DNA of 64,000 nt, from NCBI GenBank assembly GCA_000004985.1, contig GG738884.1; one strand, 5' to 3'. Origin of the DNA: Naegleria gruberi. Taxonomy: Eukaryota. A program made the translations under genes and the position numbers. The notes under the pieces were generated by a model. It was given only the letters and a program-made list of their open reading frames with translations, did not search any database and was not told the DNA's origin. Shown piece after piece: positions 10,462-55,647 of this stretch (the stretch's first letter is position 1; the number at the start of each line of letters is the position of its first letter).

Positions 10462-12264
10462 TTAAAATATGCCATACTTTCCAGGAGAGAGAATATTATT
10501 AGGATCAAGCGTTTTCTTTAAAGTTTGAAGAAGAGGTGGAACTGCATTATTGTCTTGTAACCAATTGACTGATTGAATTCCCAATCTGTATGGAACGTAG
10601 CCCAGTTTTTGACCTGCGTTCATTAGTTCATGATAGCACACTTGTGCACGTTTCATTTCTTCCTCATTATTTCTATCAAATAATAGAGGAATAGTACCAA
10701 CGCAACATCTATCCGAAAGACTGGTCAAAGTCATGAGTGGTTCAGTTTTGTGTTTCTTACAAATTTCATTGACCATTGAGGTGAATGAGTTCAAGTCTTG
10801 AGGAGTGATTGGTATGAGTGGATTGTACCAAATAATACCAGCTCCATCTTTGGATGGATTCCAAGGTTTATCTGTTGGTCTTTCACCTGATTTCCAATAA
10901 GCAATACGAAGACCAGTTTCATTTGGAATACCAGAAAATAACTCTAAAGATTTGGAAAGAACATTCGCATAGGTTGCCAAGTGTGTCTTGTTCACAATTG
11001 GAATTTGGTTTAAAAAGCTGGAAGTGGAGTGGACGAAATTGGCAGAAAGAAAGATATTTCTCTTACTTCCATACCTTCTCAAAATCTTCTTGATATCACT
11101 TCTTGCAGCTTTGATCACTGCAGAACTGCCATACAAATTACCAACTCCGTTCCATGCTGTGAATTGATTCTTCTTACAGAACGAATCAATATACGATTGT
11201 GGTAGCATTCCATCGACTGCTTGATCTTTCGGATAAGGCCCAGCCATAGGCACCATGGCATAGTTATTGATTAGTTTTACAGAACCAATAATTCCATTAG
11301 AACATCTCAAGATTTCTTTGGAAGCAGAAACAGCATTCGAAAGGTCATCAAAAAAGAAGAAGAAACTTTCAACCTTTTCTGGTTTAGGATACAAGGCAAT
11401 CGACATCTTGGTTACAATTCCCAAATTACTTTGAGAAAACAAACCCTCCAAATAAGGACCAGTTTGCCATTTGTAAAGTGTGGAAACATGTTTCCCGCCC
11501 ATTTTGTCCAACATGGATTCATGGACATTACCTGTTGGTAACACAATTCTCATACTTGTAGCAGCACCAAAATGATCAATGTATGGTGAGATTCCATATC
11601 CTCTTTCCAGAGCATTGGAAAGTAAACTACATGTTGGACCAGCACCAGTAACAGGAACTGTATAGTCAAGATTCCTTTCTTGTAAATAATCCAAAAGTTG
11701 TTGTTGAGTAACACCTGGTTCGACATGTGCAACACCATTTTCTTCATCCATATCTAATCTTGTCATTTTACTCATCTTTAACAAGACAGTTCTTTGATTA
11801 GTGGCAGGAAGAGCTGAGCCATAACCCCAATTCTGACCAGAACTGACAGGATTTAAAGGTACTTGATATCTGTTGGCTATCTTGACAATCTGAACAACCT
11901 GATCATGACTTGTTGGATAAACAATAGCTGGAACGTTTCGAATATTTCCAGAGCAATCAGCAAGCTCTCTCGAAAGACTTTCCTCATCTGTTGCCACATT
12001 AGTTGCACCAACAATAGAACGAAAGTGTTCCAGAGCTCTTGCCAACAAAATATCACCATTCGTCAAAGAGTCTTTGTTAGTAATCTTGAGTGAAGCTTGC
12101 TCGACATGTGAAAGCTCTTCTTTGACTTTCAATGGAGAATGAGTAATAATAGAAGATGAAGAATAGAAAGAGAGTGTATTAGGTGAAGTATTATTGGTAA
12201 AAGAACCAATGAACAACAACTTATTCTTATGGACATTCGCTAATTGATTTCGAATAGTTTTCAT
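10462..12264 (-). CDS. FAD-linked oxidoreductase of the VAO/PCMH family with an FAD_binding_4 N-terminal domain.
   Basis: A 600-aa ORF with an ATG at 12264. The FAD_binding_4 region is clear: ...VPAIVYPTSHDQVVQIVKIANRYQVPLNPVSSGQNWGYGSA...VEPGVTQQQLLDYL...VTGAGPTCSLLSNALERGYG. A large C-terminal substrate domain follows. About 60 N-terminal residues form an extension that could be a targeting peptide. Confidence 0.65.
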   Translation of the reverse strand: MKTIRNQLANVHKNKLLFIGSFTNNTSPNTLSFYSSSSIITHSPLKVKEELSHVEQASLKITNKDSLTNGDILLARALEHFRSIVGATNVATDEESLSRELADCSGNIRNVPAIVYPTSHDQVVQIVKIANRYQVPLNPVSSGQNWGYGSALPATNQRTVLLKMSKMTRLDMDEENGVAHVEPGVTQQQLLDYLQERNLDYTVPVTGAGPTCSLLSNALERGYGISPYIDHFGAATSMRIVLPTGNVHESMLDKMGGKHVSTLYKWQTGPYLEGLFSQSNLGIVTKMSIALYPKPEKVESFFFFFDDLSNAVSASKEILRCSNGIIGSVKLINNYAMVPMAGPYPKDQAVDGMLPQSYIDSFCKKNQFTAWNGVGNLYGSSAVIKAARSDIKKILRRYGSKRNIFLSANFVHSTSSFLNQIPIVNKTHLATYANVLSKSLELFSGIPNETGLRIAYWKSGERPTDKPWNPSKDGAGIIWYNPLIPITPQDLNSFTSMVNEICKKHKTEPLMTLTSLSDRCCVGTIPLLFDRNNEEEMKRAQVCYHELMNAGQKLGYVPYRLGIQSVNWLQDNNAVPPLLQTLKKTLDPNNILSPGKYGIF

Positions 12265-12472
12265 TTTGTTTTTTAAATTGATTGCAAAGAGTTCACTGGT
12301 GTGAGCACTCTATCCCAACAAAAACACAAAATGATTCAAACAAATTCATTTGAGATGGCTATACTGGAATGTTTACAATATTTTTCATTGGTTGAGTAAT
12401 TGATCTTGTGCACAGCATTGGGAAACCTAATCCTTTCCGGTATTTTGAACAAGATTTTCTCATGAGACTTCT

Positions 12473-12522
12473 NNNNNNNNNNNNNNNNNNNNNNNNNNNN
12501 NNNNNNNNNNNNNNNNNNNNNN
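12473..12522. other. Assembly gap of 50 N that lies inside a gene.
   Basis: A run of N in the sequence. The coding exon of the PRXL2-RGS gene resumes immediately at 12523. Confidence 0.95.
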
Positions 12523-14122
12523 GTCACAAAAACACAACATTCTCCTCATCTTTCGTCGATTTGTAAGTTTCGGCGGGTGTGCCTTCTGCAATAGACGAAT
12601 GGTAGAGTTGATGGAATTTTACAGATCGCTCACACAGTTGAACATTGTACCAATTGTTGTTTATCCGGAAACTGAGGAAAGAGGAGAAGATTTTTTCAAT
12701 TCTGTAAGTTTACTACTGTTCAATGTTCAATAATATTAAATATTAAATACTATATTTACAATAATAATTAACTATTACTATTGAATATTTAACAACTTAC
12801 AAAAAAAATATTTAAAGTGGGAAATTCCCGAAATTTCATCACTCATTCGCGTTCCCGATCCAAACAATGAATTCGCCACTGTTTTTGATATTTACTCCGG
12901 CTCAGTTTCCAAAAAAGTAATCCTGACCTATCTCATTCCACAACTACTACTCACCAAAATGGATGGATTCTCACAGGAACGTAAGAAGAGGGATGAATAC
13001 CATGGGAAAAGTTTCTACATTCGACCTGCAATGTTTCTGATTAGGAGAGGGAAGGTCATCCATTCGTGGCGATTGAATTATGCCGATCATTGTCCTAAGG
13101 TTTTGGAAGAAATTGTTTTGAAATTGGATTTGAAAAGTGGTGGAGGTGATGATTTGGAAAGTTTGAAAATGAATGAGAAAAATGTTGTGAAAATTGAAAG
13201 TAAGAAAGTTATTGGAAAGGAAGAAGAGATGTTGAATGAAGTTTCTAATGAAAATGAAACAAGGAAGGAAGAATGTCAAAATGTAATAATGGAAATGGAA
13301 TTGAAAGAATGTGAATCTCAAATCAAGGAACAAATTCAAATGGAAGAAACTAAACTTGACGAATCTACCCTTCAAACCATTGAAATTTCCACACAAATCG
13401 ACATGCCAATCATTGACACTTCTAGAGAAATTCCAATCTACAAGAGAAAACAAGCAAGCTCATCATTGGAAATAATCACACCAACTGAAAAGAAGGAAAA
13501 TGAAAAAATTCAAACAATCAAAGCAAAGAAATCTCTCCAACCTAAATATTCCTGTTTTGGAAATCGAAATGTGGTAGGAGATTCGGATTTGAACATGTTG
13601 GTAGTTTTGGAAAATCCGAAACTTCGTAAATATTTCAAACTGTTTGCACATATGGAATTTAATATTGAGAATATTCTATTTTGGGAAGAAGTTAATACTC
13701 ACTACAAGCCAATTGCTTCATTTTCCAAATTTGACAAGACGAAATCAATTGCTACAAGTATTGGAAACCTTTTCCTATTCGATTCTCATTCAGTCATGCA
13801 CGTAAATACTTCGGATAAATTAAGGGAACAAGTAAGGGAACAAATTCAATTTCATTTCGAATCAAAATCCATTACTGAACTATTACCATCGAAATATAGA
13901 GTTAATAGATCATTAGAAGACACTGCTGTCGATCCACTTTCGAATACACCAGAAGAATCTGACAACATTTCACAACTTTCAATTGCTGATCGATTTAATG
14001 AAACAGTTACTGGAATATTTGATCCCATCATTAACGAAATGTTATCCTCTTCCATACAGGACATGTTTTTAAGATTCAGGACAAGTGATTTATTCTCCCA
14101 AATGATTTCTTCAGTAAAATAA
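12523..14122 (+). CDS. Fusion protein with an N-terminal PRXL2/FAM213-type thioredoxin-fold (AhpC/TSA-like, CxxC) domain and a C-terminal RGS domain. It is 5'-partial because of the gap. Exons are 12523..12703 and 12818..14122.
   Basis: The exon after the gap reads ...ILLIFRRFVSFGGCAFCNRRMVELMEFYRSLTQLNIVPIVVYPETEERGEDFFNS and ends at a GTAAGT donor (12704). The acceptor is ...tttaaag|TGG (12817/12818), in frame. Translation then continues ...MDGFSQERKKRDEYHGKSFYIRPAMFLIRRGKVIHSWRLNYADHCP, which matches the PRXL2A C-terminal half (NGGFSG...GGVFVVG..GKQGIL). It runs directly into the ORF-track ORF 12959..14122, whose C-terminus carries RGS motifs (YFKLFAHMEFNIENILFWEEVNTHYK ... SIQDMFLRFRTSDLFSQMI). 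A candidate first exon lies upstream of the gap, with an ATG at 12331 (MIQTNSFEMAILECLQYFSLVE, resembling PRXL2A ...AALEYLEDIDL); this is uncertain. Confidence 0.6.
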
Positions 14123-35199: not shown

Positions 35200-35593
35200 N
35201 NNNNNNNNNNNNNNNNNNNNNNNNNNNNNNNNNNNNNNNNNNNNNNNNNNNNNNNNNNNNNNNNNNNNNNNNNNNNNNNNNNNNNNNNNNNNNNNNNNNN
35301 NNNNNNNNNNNNNNNNNNNNNNNNNNNNNNNNNNNNNNNNNNNNNNNNNNNNNNNNNNNNNNNNNNNNNNNNNNNNNNNNNNNNNNNNNNNNNNNNNNNN
35401 NNNNNNNNNNNNNNNNNNNNNNNNNNNNNNNNNNNNNNNNNNNNNNNNNNNNNNNNNNNNNNNNNNNNNNNNNNNNNNNNNNNNNNNNNNNNNNNNNNNN
35501 NNNNNNNNNNNNNNNNNNNNNNNNNNNNNNNNNNNNNNNNNNNNNNNNNNNNNNNNNNNNNNNNNNNNNNNNNNNNNNNNNNNNNNNNNNNNN
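35200..35593. other. Assembly gap of 394 N.
   Basis: A run of N. The ORF-track ORFs 35131..35951 that span it are artefacts of translating N. Confidence 0.95.
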
Positions 35594-39557: not shown

Positions 39558-42086
39558 TTAAGGAGATTGCACACTCTTAATATGTTCTTTCCATTTCCTT
39601 GAATTATTAAATCTATAAAACGAGTCCATTAAATTTTTGTAAACCTCTGTTTGTAAAGTTGGGAAAATATTTGGTTTACAAATGTTTGTAATGAGCGGTT
39701 TCATGAGTTCTTCTTGGGATTGATCGATATTTGGGAAATATCTCAATGAAATATCTTTCATGATACGAGGAAGTTGGTTGATTTTGAGTTTGTGGTTGTT
39801 GAGAAGGTTTTGAAGTTCTTTGTAATCTTTCAGTTCAGTGTGGATGATTTTGGAAGGAACGTTAATTTCGAATACTGAACTGCTTTCGGATAGGTAGAGT
39901 TTAGTCATTTCCTTGATTTTCATTACTTTGGAACGAACGTGTCTTTCGTTAATCTTTCTCAATCGATTTAAATCCTCAATGAAGAGTAAATTTTCAACTG
40001 AATATTCTTCTCTCAAATATTGATAGAATAAATCTCTTTCCTTCTTGTGTGAAATGATAAAGTCAATTGAGTAGGAACAAATTGGAGAGGAGAGTAATTG
40101 TTGAATACTTTGAATAGCGTTGGCGTTCTTATCATTGGAGGAATCACTGTTATTGAGATTGGCGGCTTTTCTCTTTTCTTTAAAGGCAAGGAAAAAGTTC
40201 CAAATGCCTTTCATTACAGTTATGCCTGGATTACTGATCGAGCCACCAAGGAAATTGAGACCAATAGCTAGTACGAGTGATGAAGTCAATTGTGAACTAA
40301 TTGGGCCATATGATGGGACAATAACGAGAACTATTCCAGAAGCAATATCGAAAATGACAATGAAAAGACTTTCCACTCTATATACGAAAGGATCAGTTTC
40401 GTAAAAGTAGTAAATAAAGAAATTTTCAGTCTTTTCTCCCTTTTCCTTATTGATTCTTCTTGTTTGGATGTATTTGTAAATGGAAAATATGAAATCCACT
40501 GCCAAAAATAATGGAATAGCAAGGAATAGTATAAAAAGAACGATAATTGCATAAATAGAAACATTGTCTCTATCAATCTTTCTACAATATCCACTGTTTT
40601 GCTCCCAAGAGTAAAAGACACTCTCCCAGGAGTCTTTCGCATGAGAAGCAACTCTAACACTGATAATTACAAACCAAACAATGACCCACAAGGAAATATA
40701 CGATATTTCAACAATTCGATATTTGATAATCTTCTTCAACAAGTTGGCAAATCTTCCTTGTTTGGAAATTTCTTCGTAAGATGTAGAGATGGCATCGTCA
40801 TCGGTTGTCAAATCCAAAGCAATGTCATCGTAATCAGAGTAGGCATTGGAAATTTCATCAAGTTCTGAAGGCCTTGAACCTCTGGCAGACATTGGTGCAT
40901 CACTATTGACTGATTGTGAAAGAGAACTCAAATCCAAAGTCGAAACACCCTCATTAAGAGCAACATTTGAAGCACTAGAAGGGAATTGACCTAAATCTTC
41001 AGTACTTTCTGCTGGTCTCCTCAATGATTTTCTGTTTTGAATTGTATTGGAAGTAGCGTTTTGCTGTTCTGTCTTGTTTTGTAATTTGATGTTTTTGAAT
41101 TTTTCCAATTGCTTTCGTTTGAAATCTTCCAATGATTTTACAATATCCTGTCTCTTGTCCTTTAAAAGTGTCAAAAGCAAGAGTTTGATAATCTGAATAC
41201 TATACAGAGCTACACTGAGAACGACAAGCCCATAAAGCACATACGAATTAACGAAACAATACACATTCTCAAATGTAATATAATTGACCAACCAATTTGG
41301 CAAACCATTGCTAGAATTCAAGTTATTTTGATAAAAAGTTGCAGCGCTAACCGATTTAGTACTCTTTTCCATTAAAAATTGATTCCAATAACTTTCAAAA
41401 TACATCTTAATCCACGGTAAAAAATCAAGTGTACCCTGAATATGACTGATAACATTCAAACCAACCAAAATTAGTGAAACAAAGAATTTCGACTTGATTG
41501 GTTCATAATTTCTCAACAGGAAAATGCAACATGTGAGAAAAATATCAAAAATGACAATTACTACTCTGATAGCAATTGTCACAGTCGTAACCAAATTATT
41601 TCCACTAATCATGACAATTGCCTGCTGAGCTGTAGTCAAATTATAAGTAACATTTCCCAACAGGATTGAAAATTCTGTCGTGTTATAATCCTTCAATGCA
41701 ACATCAGATGGTGCTTGAATTACTTCATGTTGTGAAGAATTATCAACAACAACAACTGAGAGATGATGCATTGTCATGAGTGATGGTGAGTCGATATCAT
41801 TTGGGATAGAGTATGTTTTAAAACGATCTGCTAGGTGACCAATTGTGTTGATTAGGAAGTTCTCCTGACTTTCTAAATGTGTTTTTGTTGAGGTGGAACG
41901 TGTTGATGGAATACTGGTGGCTGACATTGTTTCGGCAAAAAAGCATGTATTGCACAAAAAGAGAAACAAGACTACAAGTATGGTAAGAGTATAAATTTTT
42001 CTAGAACGGCTTTTTGGAAAGTGGCTTGTTGATGGAGACATTTTGTGTACGAATGATGACATGTGGTGGCAATGCTGTTTCATCAA
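39558..42086 (-). CDS. Seven-transmembrane receptor-like protein with a C-terminal RGS domain (7TM-RGS).
   Basis: ATG at 42086. The N-terminus has a signal or TM segment and an ectodomain with N-glycosylation sequons. Seven hydrophobic helices are split three and four around a large acidic loop. The C-terminal RGS motifs are ...SIDFIISHKKERDLFYQYLREEYSVENLLFIEDLNRLRK ... LMDSFYRFNNSRKW. Confidence 0.65.
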   Translation of the reverse strand: MMKQHCHHMSSFVHKMSPSTSHFPKSRSRKIYTLTILVVLFLFLCNTCFFAETMSATSIPSTRSTSTKTHLESQENFLINTIGHLADRFKTYSIPNDIDSPSLMTMHHLSVVVVDNSSQHEVIQAPSDVALKDYNTTEFSILLGNVTYNLTTAQQAIVMISGNNLVTTVTIAIRVVIVIFDIFLTCCIFLLRNYEPIKSKFFVSLILVGLNVISHIQGTLDFLPWIKMYFESYWNQFLMEKSTKSVSAATFYQNNLNSSNGLPNWLVNYITFENVYCFVNSYVLYGLVVLSVALYSIQIIKLLLLTLLKDKRQDIVKSLEDFKRKQLEKFKNIKLQNKTEQQNATSNTIQNRKSLRRPAESTEDLGQFPSSASNVALNEGVSTLDLSSLSQSVNSDAPMSARGSRPSELDEISNAYSDYDDIALDLTTDDDAISTSYEEISKQGRFANLLKKIIKYRIVEISYISLWVIVWFVIISVRVASHAKDSWESVFYSWEQNSGYCRKIDRDNVSIYAIIVLFILFLAIPLFLAVDFIFSIYKYIQTRRINKEKGEKTENFFIYYFYETDPFVYRVESLFIVIFDIASGIVLVIVPSYGPISSQLTSSLVLAIGLNFLGGSISNPGITVMKGIWNFFLAFKEKRKAANLNNSDSSNDKNANAIQSIQQLLSSPICSYSIDFIISHKKERDLFYQYLREEYSVENLLFIEDLNRLRKINERHVRSKVMKIKEMTKLYLSESSSVFEINVPSKIIHTELKDYKELQNLLNNHKLKINQLPRIMKDISLRYFPNIDQSQEELMKPLITNICKPNIFPTLQTEVYKNLMDSFYRFNNSRKWKEHIKSVQSP

Positions 42087-42488
42087 AATGATGAAAATTG
42101 ATAGTGGCTAATGTTATGTTGATGATGGAGAGAGGCTTTTTTATCTCAATATTATCTCTCAATAGTAAAATTGATAATATTTAAAGATTCTAATAGTTTC
42201 GGCAAGTTGTTTGTTTTTTTTAGATGGTTCAATGTTCAAAAGGCATGTACAAAGTTTCCGTGTTTTTTGTTGAACTTGTAAAGCTCAAAAGTACAGTGCT
42301 ATTGTATGTTGGTGTTGAGCAATTTTTTTTCGTAATTACGAAATAACAGCCAAATCAACAAGAAACGTCAAATCATGCAGATTAAATTCCAAAAGGGAAG
42401 CATGTACCAAATTTAATAGAGAATGAACTTTACAGCCACAATACAACAACAACCATATTTATTTACAATGTATCAGTTCTCAAAGTCC

Positions 42489-54213: not shown

Positions 54214-55647
54214 TTATTTTGCCTTTCTAATTCTCTGATCGTATAATTCACTCTCAACGAATCTCAAAAACGAATCCTTAATTGCATCTCCTTCCATGCT
54301 AACTTTCACATCATCGAACAATTCAGGAATTGCTCCTTCCTTTTCAAAGGTTGACAAGACTCTCTTTTTCATGGCTGACGAAATGTTAATTTCCAACATG
54401 GAATCCGAATTCAAATATGTATCAATTATATATTGAGCAAGTTGTCTTCTCTTTTTCAGAGTTTTTAATTTCTGATAGGCAGTTGCATGTTCCCAAAACA
54501 GTAAACTTTCAATGGCATAAATTTTGGCAGCAAATAGTTTGAAAACTTTTCGATATTGTGGATTGATTAATGATTCTTCGAGTGAAATGGTACACGAGAG
54601 GTCAATTTGAGCTGATGTACAACTAAATGATCGTTTGTCTTTCATTTTCATTACTTCTTTTGGGAGAGAAGCAAGTTTTCGAGCCATTGGATAATTCTGC
54701 AAAAGTTTTTTCATATTTTTTCTTTCCACAAGGTTGACCTGTGAGGTTTCTACAAATTCTGGAACAATTTCTTCCTTATCAATTGATTCTTCATCATTTG
54801 TTGAAGAATCGTCTGATATACTCAATAAATCGAATAGATTATCACTTCCTTTTCCTTCGACATCAAGTAATAATTCGAGAAAATCTGGAATTTTCGAAGC
54901 TGAATGAGTTACAAATTGATTAACTATTCTGCCATGTGCCACAATGAAAGAACCAGCCAATTGATCTCTATCTGCCTTCTTTGAGGCATCAGGTGTCAAT
55001 TTATAACCTTCTGTCAATGACAATTTAAAAGCATCCAAAGTTGACGTGAAAGTTACCATCTTTGTGGCTGAAGGCACAACTCCAAATTGCTTATAATAAT
55101 AAGTACCTTCTGGATCTTCGACTCTTAGAAATTGTTTCATCAGTTTACTCCTTGCACTCTTTTCAAAAGTTACTGACACTGTCTCACTTGTCAAAGCTTG
55201 ATTATTGACAGTTATTTCTTTATCTTCCTTCTTTTCCAACTTGATCAATGGCTTAGGCATTCCCTTCTCTGAAAAGAATTCATCAGCTTCTTCCTTACTT
55301 TCTTGATGAACAAAAACGGGCACACAATTCAACTTGATTAAATTTGACAAACAGCTGACAATCTGAACAACACTTTTTTGACAGAAAACACAACCAAAAT
55401 AGCGAAGGAATATGAGAAGGACAATATGCTTTCTACTCAGCTCTTCAACTGTTACTCCAATATTAGTTTTCATTTCGGATAGAAGGTGGTGAGGTAATCC
55501 TTCAATACCAGTTAATTGTATTTGTGATTGAATATCATCGGGATGATAATCTGTTGCGTTATTATCGTTAGGTTCTATGATGATTGCATTGTCATCATTT
55601 TGGGATGTTTCTTTTTGGTTTAGGTTAGTTTCTTCTTGTCCTAACAT
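54214..55647 (-). CDS. PRXL2/FAM213-type thioredoxin-fold (CxxC) domain fused to a C-terminal RGS domain. It is a paralog of the gene at 12523..14122 and has no intron.
   Basis: ATG at 55647. ...IVLLIFLRYFGCVFCQKSVVQIVSCLSNLIKLNCVPVFVHQESKEEADEFF ... GSFIVAHGRIVNQFVTHSASKIPDF parallels the other copy (ILLIFRRFVSFGGCAFCNRRMVELMEFYRSLTQLNIVPIVVYPETEERGEDFF ... GKSFYIRPAMFLIRRGKVIHSW). The C-terminal RGS motifs are YRKVFKLFAAKIYAIESLLFWEHATAYQKLK ... IKDSFLRFVESELY. Confidence 0.6.
   Translation of the reverse strand: MLGQEETNLNQKETSQNDDNAIIIEPNDNNATDYHPDDIQSQIQLTGIEGLPHHLLSEMKTNIGVTVEELSRKHIVLLIFLRYFGCVFCQKSVVQIVSCLSNLIKLNCVPVFVHQESKEEADEFFSEKGMPKPLIKLEKKEDKEITVNNQALTSETVSVTFEKSARSKLMKQFLRVEDPEGTYYYKQFGVVPSATKMVTFTSTLDAFKLSLTEGYKLTPDASKKADRDQLAGSFIVAHGRIVNQFVTHSASKIPDFLELLLDVEGKGSDNLFDLLSISDDSSTNDEESIDKEEIVPEFVETSQVNLVERKNMKKLLQNYPMARKLASLPKEVMKMKDKRSFSCTSAQIDLSCTISLEESLINPQYRKVFKLFAAKIYAIESLLFWEHATAYQKLKTLKKRRQLAQYIIDTYLNSDSMLEINISSAMKKRVLSTFEKEGAIPELFDDVKVSMEGDAIKDSFLRFVESELYDQRIRKAK

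What the first reader, a model, noticed from the sequence alone, without database searches (positions are those of the whole stretch)
12331..14122. PRXL2/FAM213-type thioredoxin-fold domain fused to an RGS domain; the gene is split by an assembly gap
The exon after the gap encodes a CxxC thioredoxin-fold segment (FGGCAFC...IVPIVVYPE...DFFNS) that aligns with the PRXL2A peroxiredoxin-like family. After a 114-nt GTAAGT...AG intron it reads straight into an ORF that the track shows only from an internal Met. That ORF's C-terminus is an RGS domain. The product would be a redox-type module attached to a G-alpha GAP, an architecture I do not recall as characterised. The 50-N gap (12473..12522) removes part of the 5' region. 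A possible first exon with an ATG at 12331 lies upstream. A second copy sits at 54214..55647, so this is a gene family and not a chance fusion.
Basis: partly seen in the sequence, partly recalled or inferred. Interest (0 to 1): 0.7.

Follow-up and report, generated by a model that had tools for sequence, protein, structure and literature searches.

The report
Redox-type domain fused to RGS
Two Naegleria gruberi genes in this window each encode one protein joining a CxxC thioredoxin-fold "redox" domain to a G-protein-deactivating RGS domain; this fusion is a large, uncharacterised gene family of heterolobosean amoebae that may link redox state to G-protein signalling.

Summary

The "PRXL2/AhpC-TSA_2" label is only roughly right. 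Pfam PF13911 gives no reportable match on either window protein and stays below threshold in the orthologues. The closest curated model is NCBIfam "SelL-related redox protein" (E 8e-11 and 4e-19). Its bacterial members mostly match PF13911, and their best solved relative is human PRXL2B.

At least 44 sequence clusters share the architecture. Every named one is Heterolobosea (Naegleria spp., Acrasis kona). The CxxC cysteines and the RGS residues that contact G-alpha are almost invariant. The function is inferred, and a redox-gated GAP is the most likely reading. I found no paper describing it. The 5' exon remains unresolved.

The parts
12265..12472 (+). Unresolved 5' region of gene A, lying between the divergent neighbour's ATG and the gap. 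It holds the ATG at 12331 followed by a 22-codon ORF (stop 12397-12399), and an 8-codon open stretch TRFSHETS (12449-12472) in the same frame as the post-gap exon.
   Evidence: There is no significant similarity to the orthologues' N-termini. A hypothetical 58-nt intron (12396-12453) would join the ATG in frame, but it has no support.
12473..12522 (.). Assembly gap of 50 N that interrupts the first coding exon of gene A.
   Evidence: The ORF is open right up to the gap. There is no in-frame ATG between the gap and the CxxC motif. Domain-profile positions 1-18 are missing.
12524..12703 (+). Gene A exon fragment encoding the N-terminal half of the SelL-related / peroxiredoxin-like thioredoxin-fold domain. 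The CAFC motif is at 12578-12589.
   Evidence: Hits the domain HMM at positions 19-78, E = 7e-28. NF040769 match.
12704..12817 (+). Intron: 114 nt, GTAAGT...AAG, 85% A+T.
   Evidence: The intron position is conserved in N. lovaniensis (L001, 117 nt). The gene models P0010 and P0011 from other sources read through this same site.
12818..13132 (+). Gene A: C-terminal half of the redox-type domain. It lies in the same uninterrupted ORF as the RGS domain.
   Evidence: Domain HMM positions 104-201, E = 1e-21. Alignment A1.
13133..13585 (+). Gene A linker: low-complexity, rich in Glu and Lys. It contains the conserved basic-Ser-Cys-Phe motif (KYSCFG; Cys codon 13553-13555).
13586..14122 (+). Gene A RGS domain with an internal insertion of about 60 residues relative to gene B, plus the stop codon.
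   Evidence: Pfam PF00615 26.7 bits against a cut-off of 23.9. Own RGS HMM E = 4e-53. Alignment A1.
54214..55647 (-). Gene B: complete intronless 477-aa paralogue, identical to N. gruberi 'G protein signaling regulator' P0001.
54844..55494 (-). Gene B SelL-related / peroxiredoxin-like domain (residues 52-268). The CVFC motif is at 55381-55392. The domain has a disordered insertion of about 40 residues.
54217..54609 (-). Gene B RGS domain (residues 347-477).

Best explanation
Both loci are real genes of Naegleria gruberi. Each encodes a cytosolic two-domain protein with three sections:
- an N-terminal peroxiredoxin-like thioredoxin-fold domain with a CxxC motif, closest to the bacterial 'SelL-related redox protein' family and more distantly to PRXL2B;
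- a long disordered linker, which often carries a basic-Ser-Cys-hydrophobic motif;
- a C-terminal R4-like RGS domain.

Shown here: the architecture, the homology of both domains, the conservation of the redox cysteines and of the RGS residues that contact G-alpha, and the spread of the family across Heterolobosea.

Inferred:
- The RGS domain acts as a GTPase-activating protein on some of the many Naegleria G-alpha subunits.
- The CxxC domain works as a thiol/disulfide switch. It would be oxidised by peroxide or by a thiol relay and reduced by thioredoxin or glutathione systems.
- That switch would change the GAP activity, the partner binding or the membrane association of the RGS domain, so that G-protein signals are terminated according to cellular redox or oxygen status.

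Gene A is the same kind of gene. Its first exon is broken by the assembly gap, and the public model is therefore truncated to an RGS-only protein.
For: Architecture (near certain):
- A single ORF carries both domains in gene B.
- Gene A's large exon carries the C-terminal half of the redox domain plus the RGS domain.
- The orthologues P0007, P0008, P0002, P0003 and P0004 have the same layout.

RGS domain:
- Pfam passes the cut-off at 26.7 and 53.7 bits.
- Equivalents of RGS4 Glu87, Asn128 and Arg167 are kept in 44, 42 and 36 of 44 family members. The residue equivalences rest on the RGS5 alignment and on my knowledge of RGS4 numbering.

Redox domain:
- NF040769 E = 8.3e-11 for gene A and 3.7e-19 for gene B, and 44 of 44 family members match.
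- hhalign gives 100% probability, E = 2.7e-43, to 52 stand-alone relatives.
- The first Cys of CxxC is kept in 44 of 44 members and the second in 42 of 44, at 20-30% overall identity. This argues for selection on thiol chemistry.

Family size and range:
- An exhaustive HMM search gives 547 hits at E<=1e-3. About 45 of the top 150 carry an RGS domain.
- All 44 tested members pass Pfam RGS at E<=1e-3.
- Every named member is from N. gruberi, N. lovaniensis, N. fowleri or Acrasis kona.

Context: N. fowleri encodes 79 RGS proteins beyond the 7TM-RGS class, and self-activating G-alpha subunits, so GAPs are key control points there (PMC9283941).
Against: - There is no biochemical or expression evidence of any kind.
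- Neither window protein reaches a curated cut-off for any thioredoxin-like family: PF13911 (27 bits), PF00578 (26 bits) or NF040769 (120 bits).
- The AlphaFold2 model cannot say whether the two domains touch. The full-length mean pLDDT is 57.7 and the linker is disordered. The model of the domain on its own was poor, with pLDDT 44.7.
- Conserved CxxC motifs are also compatible with catalysis or metal binding, not only with sensing.
- Gene B has Ser where RGS4 has Asn88, and gene A has Met where RGS4 has Ser164. Gene A's RGS domain also carries a large insertion. GAP competence is therefore not guaranteed.
Confidence: 0.45

Rival explanations
1. Targeted enzyme. The N-terminal domain is a catalytically active thiol oxidoreductase, for example a peroxidase, a disulfide reductase, or a PRXL2B-like reductase of a lipid endoperoxide. 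The RGS domain would mainly deliver it to activated G-alpha at the membrane, for instance to repair or modify oxidised cysteines in the G-protein complex.
For: The CxxC motif is nearly invariant. The nearest solved relative of the wider family is an enzyme, prostamide/prostaglandin F synthase 9us9. The stand-alone bacterial relatives are presumed redox enzymes (NF040769).
Against: No substrate is known for SelL-related proteins. The G-alpha-contact residues of the RGS domain are conserved as in true GAPs, so the RGS domain is unlikely to be only an address tag. A family expanded to dozens of paralogues fits signalling diversification better than a housekeeping enzyme.
Confidence: 0.2
2. Non-redox scaffold. 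The thioredoxin-fold domain is a protein-binding module, comparable to the thioredoxin-like domain of phosducin that binds G-beta-gamma. The cysteines would be structural.
For: Thioredoxin folds are used as binding domains in another G-protein regulator, phosducin (my own knowledge, not tested here). Sequence divergence from curated redox families is large, and all curated cut-offs are missed.
Confidence: 0.15
3. Gene A is a decaying pseudogene or an assembly chimera, and only gene B is functional.
For: No start codon or first exon can be identified. A gap abuts the ORF. A 12-nt A/C-rich string occurs on both sides of the gap (12318-12329 and 12526-12537). The RGS domain has a long insertion and only just passes Pfam (26.7 bits).
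Against: There are 494 open codons across two exons with a canonical intron at a conserved position. CxxC, the RGS Asn and the RGS Arg are all retained. The spliced product is 43% and 41% identical to the two intact N. lovaniensis relatives P0007 and P0008 in alignment A1. Their RGS domains carry shorter insertions at the same point. The missing start is fully explained by the gap.
Confidence: 0.05

Closest known systems
SelL-related redox proteins (NCBIfam NF040769) and selenoprotein L
   Same: This is the best curated match to the N-terminal domain (E 8e-11 to 4e-19; 44 of 44 family members). The two share the F-L-R-x-x-G-C-x-F-C motif, the upstream 'TN.G..(L)S' segment and the C-terminal 'G.I...' strands. 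hhalign gives 100% probability.
   Different: Scores are far below the subfamily cut-off (42-69 bits against 120). Known members are small stand-alone proteins, or membrane-anchored ones of about 175-320 aa. They are very common in bacteria such as Saprospiraceae and other Bacteroidota. Animal SelL has two selenocysteines two residues apart where these proteins have CxxC (PMC3316567). None is fused to an RGS domain.
PRXL2A/B/C (FAM213, AAED1), i.e. Pfam AhpC-TSA_2 PF13911; solved example human PRXL2B, prostamide/PGF synthase, 9us9
   Different: PF13911 does not reach threshold on any RGS-fused member. Direct hhalign to PRXL2B gives only 17.8% probability. The window proteins are not orthologues of PRXL2A. 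The Naegleria domain has a large insertion between its two halves.
R4/RZ-type RGS proteins (RGS4, RGS5, RGS16, RGS17)
   Different: The animal R4 proteins are small, with only an amphipathic or palmitoylated N-terminus. Here an N-terminal redox-type domain of about 200 residues and a long linker are attached.
Oxygen/NO control of RGS4/5/16 through N-terminal Cys2 oxidation and the Arg/N-degron pathway (my own knowledge)
   Same: A precedent that cysteine oxidation state controls how much RGS GAP activity a cell has.
   Different: That mechanism is entirely different: it destroys the protein through an oxidised N-terminal Cys and involves no dedicated thioredoxin-fold domain. This is an analogy only and was not tested here.
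Other lineage-specific RGS architectures (7TM-RGS of plants and Naegleria, RGS-RhoGEF of Entamoeba and Naegleria)
   Same: Naegleria expands RGS proteins and couples the RGS domain to input or output modules (PMC9283941).
   Different: Those partner domains are receptors or GEFs. A redox-type partner is not mentioned in PMC9283941 or PMC3971589.

Membership tests
RGS domain (Pfam PF00615) | Score above Pfam's gathering cut-off (23.9 bits) | tested here: met
   Gene A 26.7 bits, gene B 53.7 bits. 44 of 44 family members match at E<=1e-3.
RGS domain (Pfam PF00615) | All-helical RGS fold superimposable on solved RGS domains | tested here: met
RGS domain (Pfam PF00615) | G-alpha switch-contact residues (RGS4 Glu87, Asn88, Asn128, Asp163, Arg167) | tested here: met
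   Glu in 44 of 44, Asn128-equivalent in 42 of 44, Arg in 36 of 44. Gene B reads IES...EINI...KDSFLRF and gene A reads IEN...HVNT...QDMFLRF. Position 88 is Ser in gene B. Numbering is from my knowledge of RGS4.
RGS domain (Pfam PF00615) | GTPase-accelerating activity on a G-alpha subunit | not testable with these tools
   Needs single-turnover GTPase assays.
AhpC-TSA_2 / PRXL2 (Pfam PF13911) | Score above Pfam's gathering cut-off (27 bits) | tested here: not met
   No match at E<=1 on either full-length window protein. Best orthologue 21 bits, P0004. 1 of 44 members at E<=1e-3.
AhpC-TSA_2 / PRXL2 (Pfam PF13911) | Homology to bona fide PF13911 members and to PRXL2B | tested here: inconclusive
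AhpC-TSA_2 / PRXL2 (Pfam PF13911) | CxxC motif at the N-terminus of helix 1 after strand 1 | tested here: met
   CAFC at 12578-12589 and CVFC at 55381-55392. Both follow the hydrophobic strand LLIF(R/L)R.
SelL-related redox protein (NCBIfam NF040769) | Score above NCBI's curated cut-off (120 bits) | tested here: not met
   Gene A 41.8 bits, gene B 69 bits. These are statistically significant homologues (E 8e-11 and 4e-19) but not members at subfamily level.
SelL-related redox protein (NCBIfam NF040769) | Near full-length collinear match to the model | tested here: met
   Gene A residues 3-154 match profile positions 24-165 of 173. P0007 matches 12-158 of 173. hhalign covers 165 columns.
Typical peroxiredoxins (Pfam AhpC-TSA PF00578) | Score above the cut-off (26 bits) and the Prx catalytic Pxxx(T/S)xxC...R triad | tested here: not met
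   Gene B scores 15 bits as the full protein and 16.4 bits as the domain alone, in both cases on the N-terminal half of the profile only. Gene A gives no match at E<=1 as the full-length product. 18 of 44 relatives match at E<=1e-3. The triad itself was not checked residue by residue. The motif here is CxxC, not TxxC.

The most novel reading that the evidence does not exclude
These proteins would be redox-gated GTPase-activating proteins. A dedicated CxxC thioredoxin-fold sensor, probably acquired from bacteria, was fused once to an RGS domain in an early heterolobosean and then expanded to dozens of paralogues. In Naegleria, including the pathogen N. fowleri, and in Acrasis, peroxide or thiol-redox state would then directly set the lifetime of heterotrimeric G-protein signals. 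That signalling logic has not been described in any eukaryote.
Probability: 0.3. Interest if true: 0.7.

Novelty: new variant of a known kind. Interest (0 to 1): 0.5.

Why it matters
RGS proteins are the main off-switch of heterotrimeric G-protein signalling, and the domains attached to them usually tell what signal controls that switch.

A conserved, expanded RGS family with a redox-type CxxC domain suggests a direct route from oxidative or oxygen status to G-protein signalling. This would operate in amoebae that move between soil, water and, for N. fowleri, human brain.

The hypothesis can be tested with recombinant protein and the Naegleria G-alpha subunits already in hand (PMC9283941).

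The result also corrects a truncated public gene model. It shows too that standard Pfam annotation hides this architecture, because these proteins are labelled only 'RGS domain-containing'.

It would be less important if the domain proves to be a passive scaffold.

Tried and rejected
1. AlphaFold2 on the N-terminal domain alone (alignment A3) gave pLDDT 44.7. Foldseek on it found no significant hit, with best E = 0.12. I used the full-length model instead.
2. The afdb50 fold library was unavailable.
3. A profile of the Naegleria domain against PDB sequences gave only a spurious TIR-domain hit. A direct hmmsearch of two family HMMs against the PRXL2B segment found nothing.
4. The word-indexed protein search with the domain profile found only six proteins. 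The exhaustive search was needed.
5. For the 5' exon I tested a hypothetical 58-nt intron (12396-12453, GTAATT..AAG) that would join the ATG at 12331 in frame to TRFSHETS. The product has no similarity to the orthologues. tblastn of four orthologous N-termini against 12200-12600 found only the post-gap exon. I rejected this model as unsupported.
6. A genome-contig scan with the single protein P0018 found nothing. The scan with the alignment worked.
7. The look-up of paralogue P0009's contig failed.
8. Anantharaman et al. 2011 (Gene 475:63, PMC3396428) surveyed RGS architectures including Naegleria. Shchedrina et al. 2007 (PMC1955791) described SelL. Neither paper is held, so prior mention of this fusion in the first cannot be excluded.
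9. A neighbour-joining tree of 131 domains placed most RGS-fused members apart from the bacterial stand-alone proteins. It did not recover one clean fused clade and it has no support values, so I do not claim a single fusion event.
10. I rejected the idea that the fusion is a gene-model artefact, because single ORFs carry both domains.
Full report
**Origin and anatomy.**
The window is Naegleria gruberi. The minus-strand ORF 54214-55647 is 100% identical to the N. gruberi protein 'G protein signaling regulator' (P0001). The ORF from Met 12959 to 14122 is the 387-aa N. gruberi 'predicted protein' P0006. G+C content is 34%.

- a 50-N gap at 12473-12522;
- an ORF open from 12524 that encodes ...LLIFRRFVSFGGCAFCNRR...IVPIVVYPE...DFFNS up to 12703;
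- a 114-nt GTAAGT...AAG intron (12704-12817, 85% A+T);
- an in-frame continuation from 12818 to the stop at 14120-14122.

**Is it one gene?**
Yes, and no transcript data are needed to show it.
- Gene B is a single intronless ORF with both domains.
- In gene A, the 1.3-kb exon alone carries the C-terminal half of the N-terminal domain (profile positions 104-201) and the RGS domain in one uninterrupted frame. The small exon carries profile positions 19-78 of the same domain.
- The spliced product aligns without gaps across the junction to N. lovaniensis P0007 and P0008.
- The N. lovaniensis gene has a 117-nt GTAAGT..CAG intron at the identical codon boundary.
- Two truncated gene models from other sources (P0010, P0011) read through the same site into 'VS...', which is the translation of GTAAGT.
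- A single match to NCBIfam NF040769 runs from residue 3 to residue 154 of the spliced protein, across the junction.

**The C-terminal domain is a bona fide RGS domain.**
- Pfam PF00615 scores 26.7 bits for gene A, which carries an insertion of about 60 residues relative to gene B in this domain. It scores 53.7 bits for gene B. The cut-off is 23.9.
- By sequence, the nearest solved chains are RGS5, RGS17, RGS10, RGS3, RGS16 and RGS4.
- The residues that, in RGS4, contact the G-alpha switch regions are retained. These are Glu87, Asn128, Asp163 and Arg167, with numbering from my own knowledge. Across 44 family members the Glu is kept in 44, the Asn in 42 and the Arg in 36.

**The N-terminal domain: what it is and what it is not.**
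Pfam does not recover AhpC-TSA_2 (PF13911).
- Neither full-length window protein matches at E<=1.
- The best orthologue reaches 21 bits against a cut-off of 27.
- Only 1 of 44 family members matches at E<=1e-3, while 18 of 44 match AhpC-TSA PF00578.

The domain is nevertheless clearly a peroxiredoxin-like thioredoxin fold of a specific kind.
- NCBIfam NF040769 'SelL-related redox protein' matches gene A at E = 8.3e-11 and gene B at 3.7e-19. It matches all 44 RGS-fused relatives, with a best E of 1.9e-23. All scores are below NCBI's 120-bit membership cut-off.
- An exhaustive HMM search with the Naegleria domain profile found 547 proteins at E<=1e-3. Many of them are stand-alone proteins of about 175 aa, or membrane-anchored ones of about 315 aa, carrying the motif FLRHFGCxFC(R/K)E.
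- A profile of 52 of the stand-alone proteins aligns to the Naegleria profile with hhalign probability 100%, E = 2.7e-43, over 165 columns.
- Of those 52, 37 match PF13911 and 32 match PF00578 at E<=1e-5.
- The same motif is very common in bacteria.
- Among solved structures, the stand-alone profile's best full-length hit is human prostamide/prostaglandin F synthase, PRXL2B (9us9, E = 6.5e-11). ResA-type oxidoreductases follow, and they cover only half the domain.
- Direct hhalign of the Naegleria profile to the PRXL2B segment is weak, with probability 17.8% and P = 0.0014.

Conclusion: this is a divergent member of the SelL-related / PRX-like2 group. It is related to PRXL2 proteins at about the level of Pfam PF13911, but it is not a PRXL2A orthologue.

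**Family and distribution.**
About 45 of the best 150 hits carry an RGS domain C-terminal to the redox-type domain. All 44 that I aligned match Pfam RGS at E<=1e-3.

Every member that carries an organism name is heterolobosean:
- N. gruberi: genes A and B, plus a third truncated model, P0009;
- N. lovaniensis;
- N. fowleri, including forms of about 1000 aa;
- Acrasis kona, with at least nine distinct clusters.

The remaining members come from metagenomes, Logan assemblies and unnamed EukProt entries, so occurrence outside Heterolobosea is neither shown nor excluded.

Sequence identity between subfamilies is only 20-30%. Even so, the first CxxC cysteine is kept in 44 of 44 and the second in 42 of 44.

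A neighbour-joining tree places most fused domains apart from the bacterial stand-alone ones. It is unsupported and not cleanly monophyletic. A bacterial origin with one or a few fusion events is therefore a hypothesis only.

**Mechanism.**
Shown: the architecture, the homology of both domains, and the conservation of the thiol motif and of the GAP interface.

Inferred:
- The protein is cytosolic. There is no sign of a signal peptide or transmembrane helix, though I ran no dedicated predictor, and the N-terminus and linker are disordered in the model.
- The RGS domain accelerates GTP hydrolysis on some of the many Naegleria G-alpha subunits.
- The CxxC domain acts as a thiol/disulfide switch that modulates that activity, or its localisation.

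I give this redox-gated GAP reading about 0.45. The rivals are a targeted oxidoreductase (0.2), a non-redox scaffold of the phosducin kind (0.15), and gene A being defective (0.05).

One further observation bears on the mechanism. A basic-Ser-Cys-hydrophobic motif lies 15-35 residues upstream of the RGS domain in roughly half of the family; the Cys column is shared by 24 of 44 members. It could be a palmitoylation site or a partner cysteine for the CxxC pair. This is untested.

**The 5' end of gene A.**
It is unresolved. The ATG at 12331 opens a frame that stops after 22 codons. The eight codons before the gap (TRFSHETS) are in the same frame as the post-gap exon and faintly resemble 'TRMETS' in P0010, but a stop codon precedes them. 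Neither a hypothetical 58-nt intron nor tblastn with four orthologous N-termini gave support. The orthologues have about 65-85 residues before the conserved 'LSxxH' segment. At least part of exon 1 therefore lies in the gap.

**Literature.**
Full-text searches found no paper that describes a thioredoxin-like, peroxiredoxin-like or SelL-like domain fused to RGS.
- The N. fowleri G-protein study counts 79 RGS proteins beyond the 7TM-RGS class but mentions no redox domain (PMC9283941).
- The eukaryote-wide GPCR-system survey does not mention one either (PMC3971589).
- The most relevant survey, Anantharaman et al. 2011, is not held, so prior mention cannot be excluded.

**Verdict.**
The finding is real and correctly located. 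The domain label is approximately right and is now refined. It represents an uncharacterised, lineage-specific RGS architecture, that is, a new variant of a known kind. It comes with a testable redox-signalling hypothesis and no functional data. Interest is 0.5.

Noticed in passing
window 39561-42107 (-): A third RGS-domain gene in the same 64-kb window: an 849-aa ORF with the RGS domain at the C-terminus (Pfam 27 bits; own RGS HMM E = 5e-13). It has no SelL-like domain. Its N-terminal 680 residues were not examined.
   Followed up: partly
window 13553-13555 (+) and 54619-54621 (-); alignment A6 column 1092: A conserved Cys sits in a basic-Ser-Cys-hydrophobic motif (KYSCFG, RSFSCTS) in the disordered linker, 15-35 residues before the RGS domain. 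It is shared by 24 of 44 family members in the aligned column. It could be a palmitoylation site or a partner cysteine for the CxxC.
   Followed up: partly
window 12318-12329 and 12526-12537: The identical 12-mer ACAAAAACACAA lies on both sides of the 50-N gap. In both places it translates through Q-K-H. This may be chance in A-rich sequence, or it may hint at a mis-joined or collapsed assembly at the gap.
   Followed up: no
window 10462-12264 (-): The upstream neighbour is a 600-aa FAD-linked oxidase (FAD_binding_4 plus FAD-oxidase_C), transcribed divergently. Its ATG is only 66 nt from the candidate ATG at 12331, so any shared promoter region is very short.
   Followed up: partly
window about 13850-14010 (+): Gene A's RGS domain carries an in-frame insertion of about 60 residues relative to gene B (roughly FHFESKSITELLPSKYRVNRSLEDTAVDPLSNTPEESDNISQLSIADRF). 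It is about 27 residues longer than the corresponding inserts in N. lovaniensis P0007 and P0008. Its base composition looks coding, not intronic.
   Followed up: partly
P0009 (N. gruberi, another scaffold); P0010 and P0011 (other Naegleria-like sources): Further members of the family are deposited as truncated models. P0009 is a 144-aa N. gruberi fragment, 76% identical to gene B's domain. P0010 and P0011 run through the conserved intron into nonsense. Public annotation therefore systematically under-reports this architecture.
   Followed up: partly
P0012, P0061, P0071 and about 30 similar hits (about 300-325 aa): Many relatives fuse the SelL-like domain to an N-terminal hydrophobic domain of about 140 residues. 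In P0012 this domain gives a weak BphX-like match. This is a second, unrelated architecture of the same redox domain. Their source organisms are not named in the collection, and I only presume they are bacterial.
   Followed up: no
P0082 (667 aa, unnamed source): One relative combines a CAP-Gly domain (60 bits), the SelL-like domain and a partial RGS domain. This hints at a link to microtubules in at least one family member.
   Followed up: no
window 35200-35593: A second assembly gap of 394 N.
   Followed up: no
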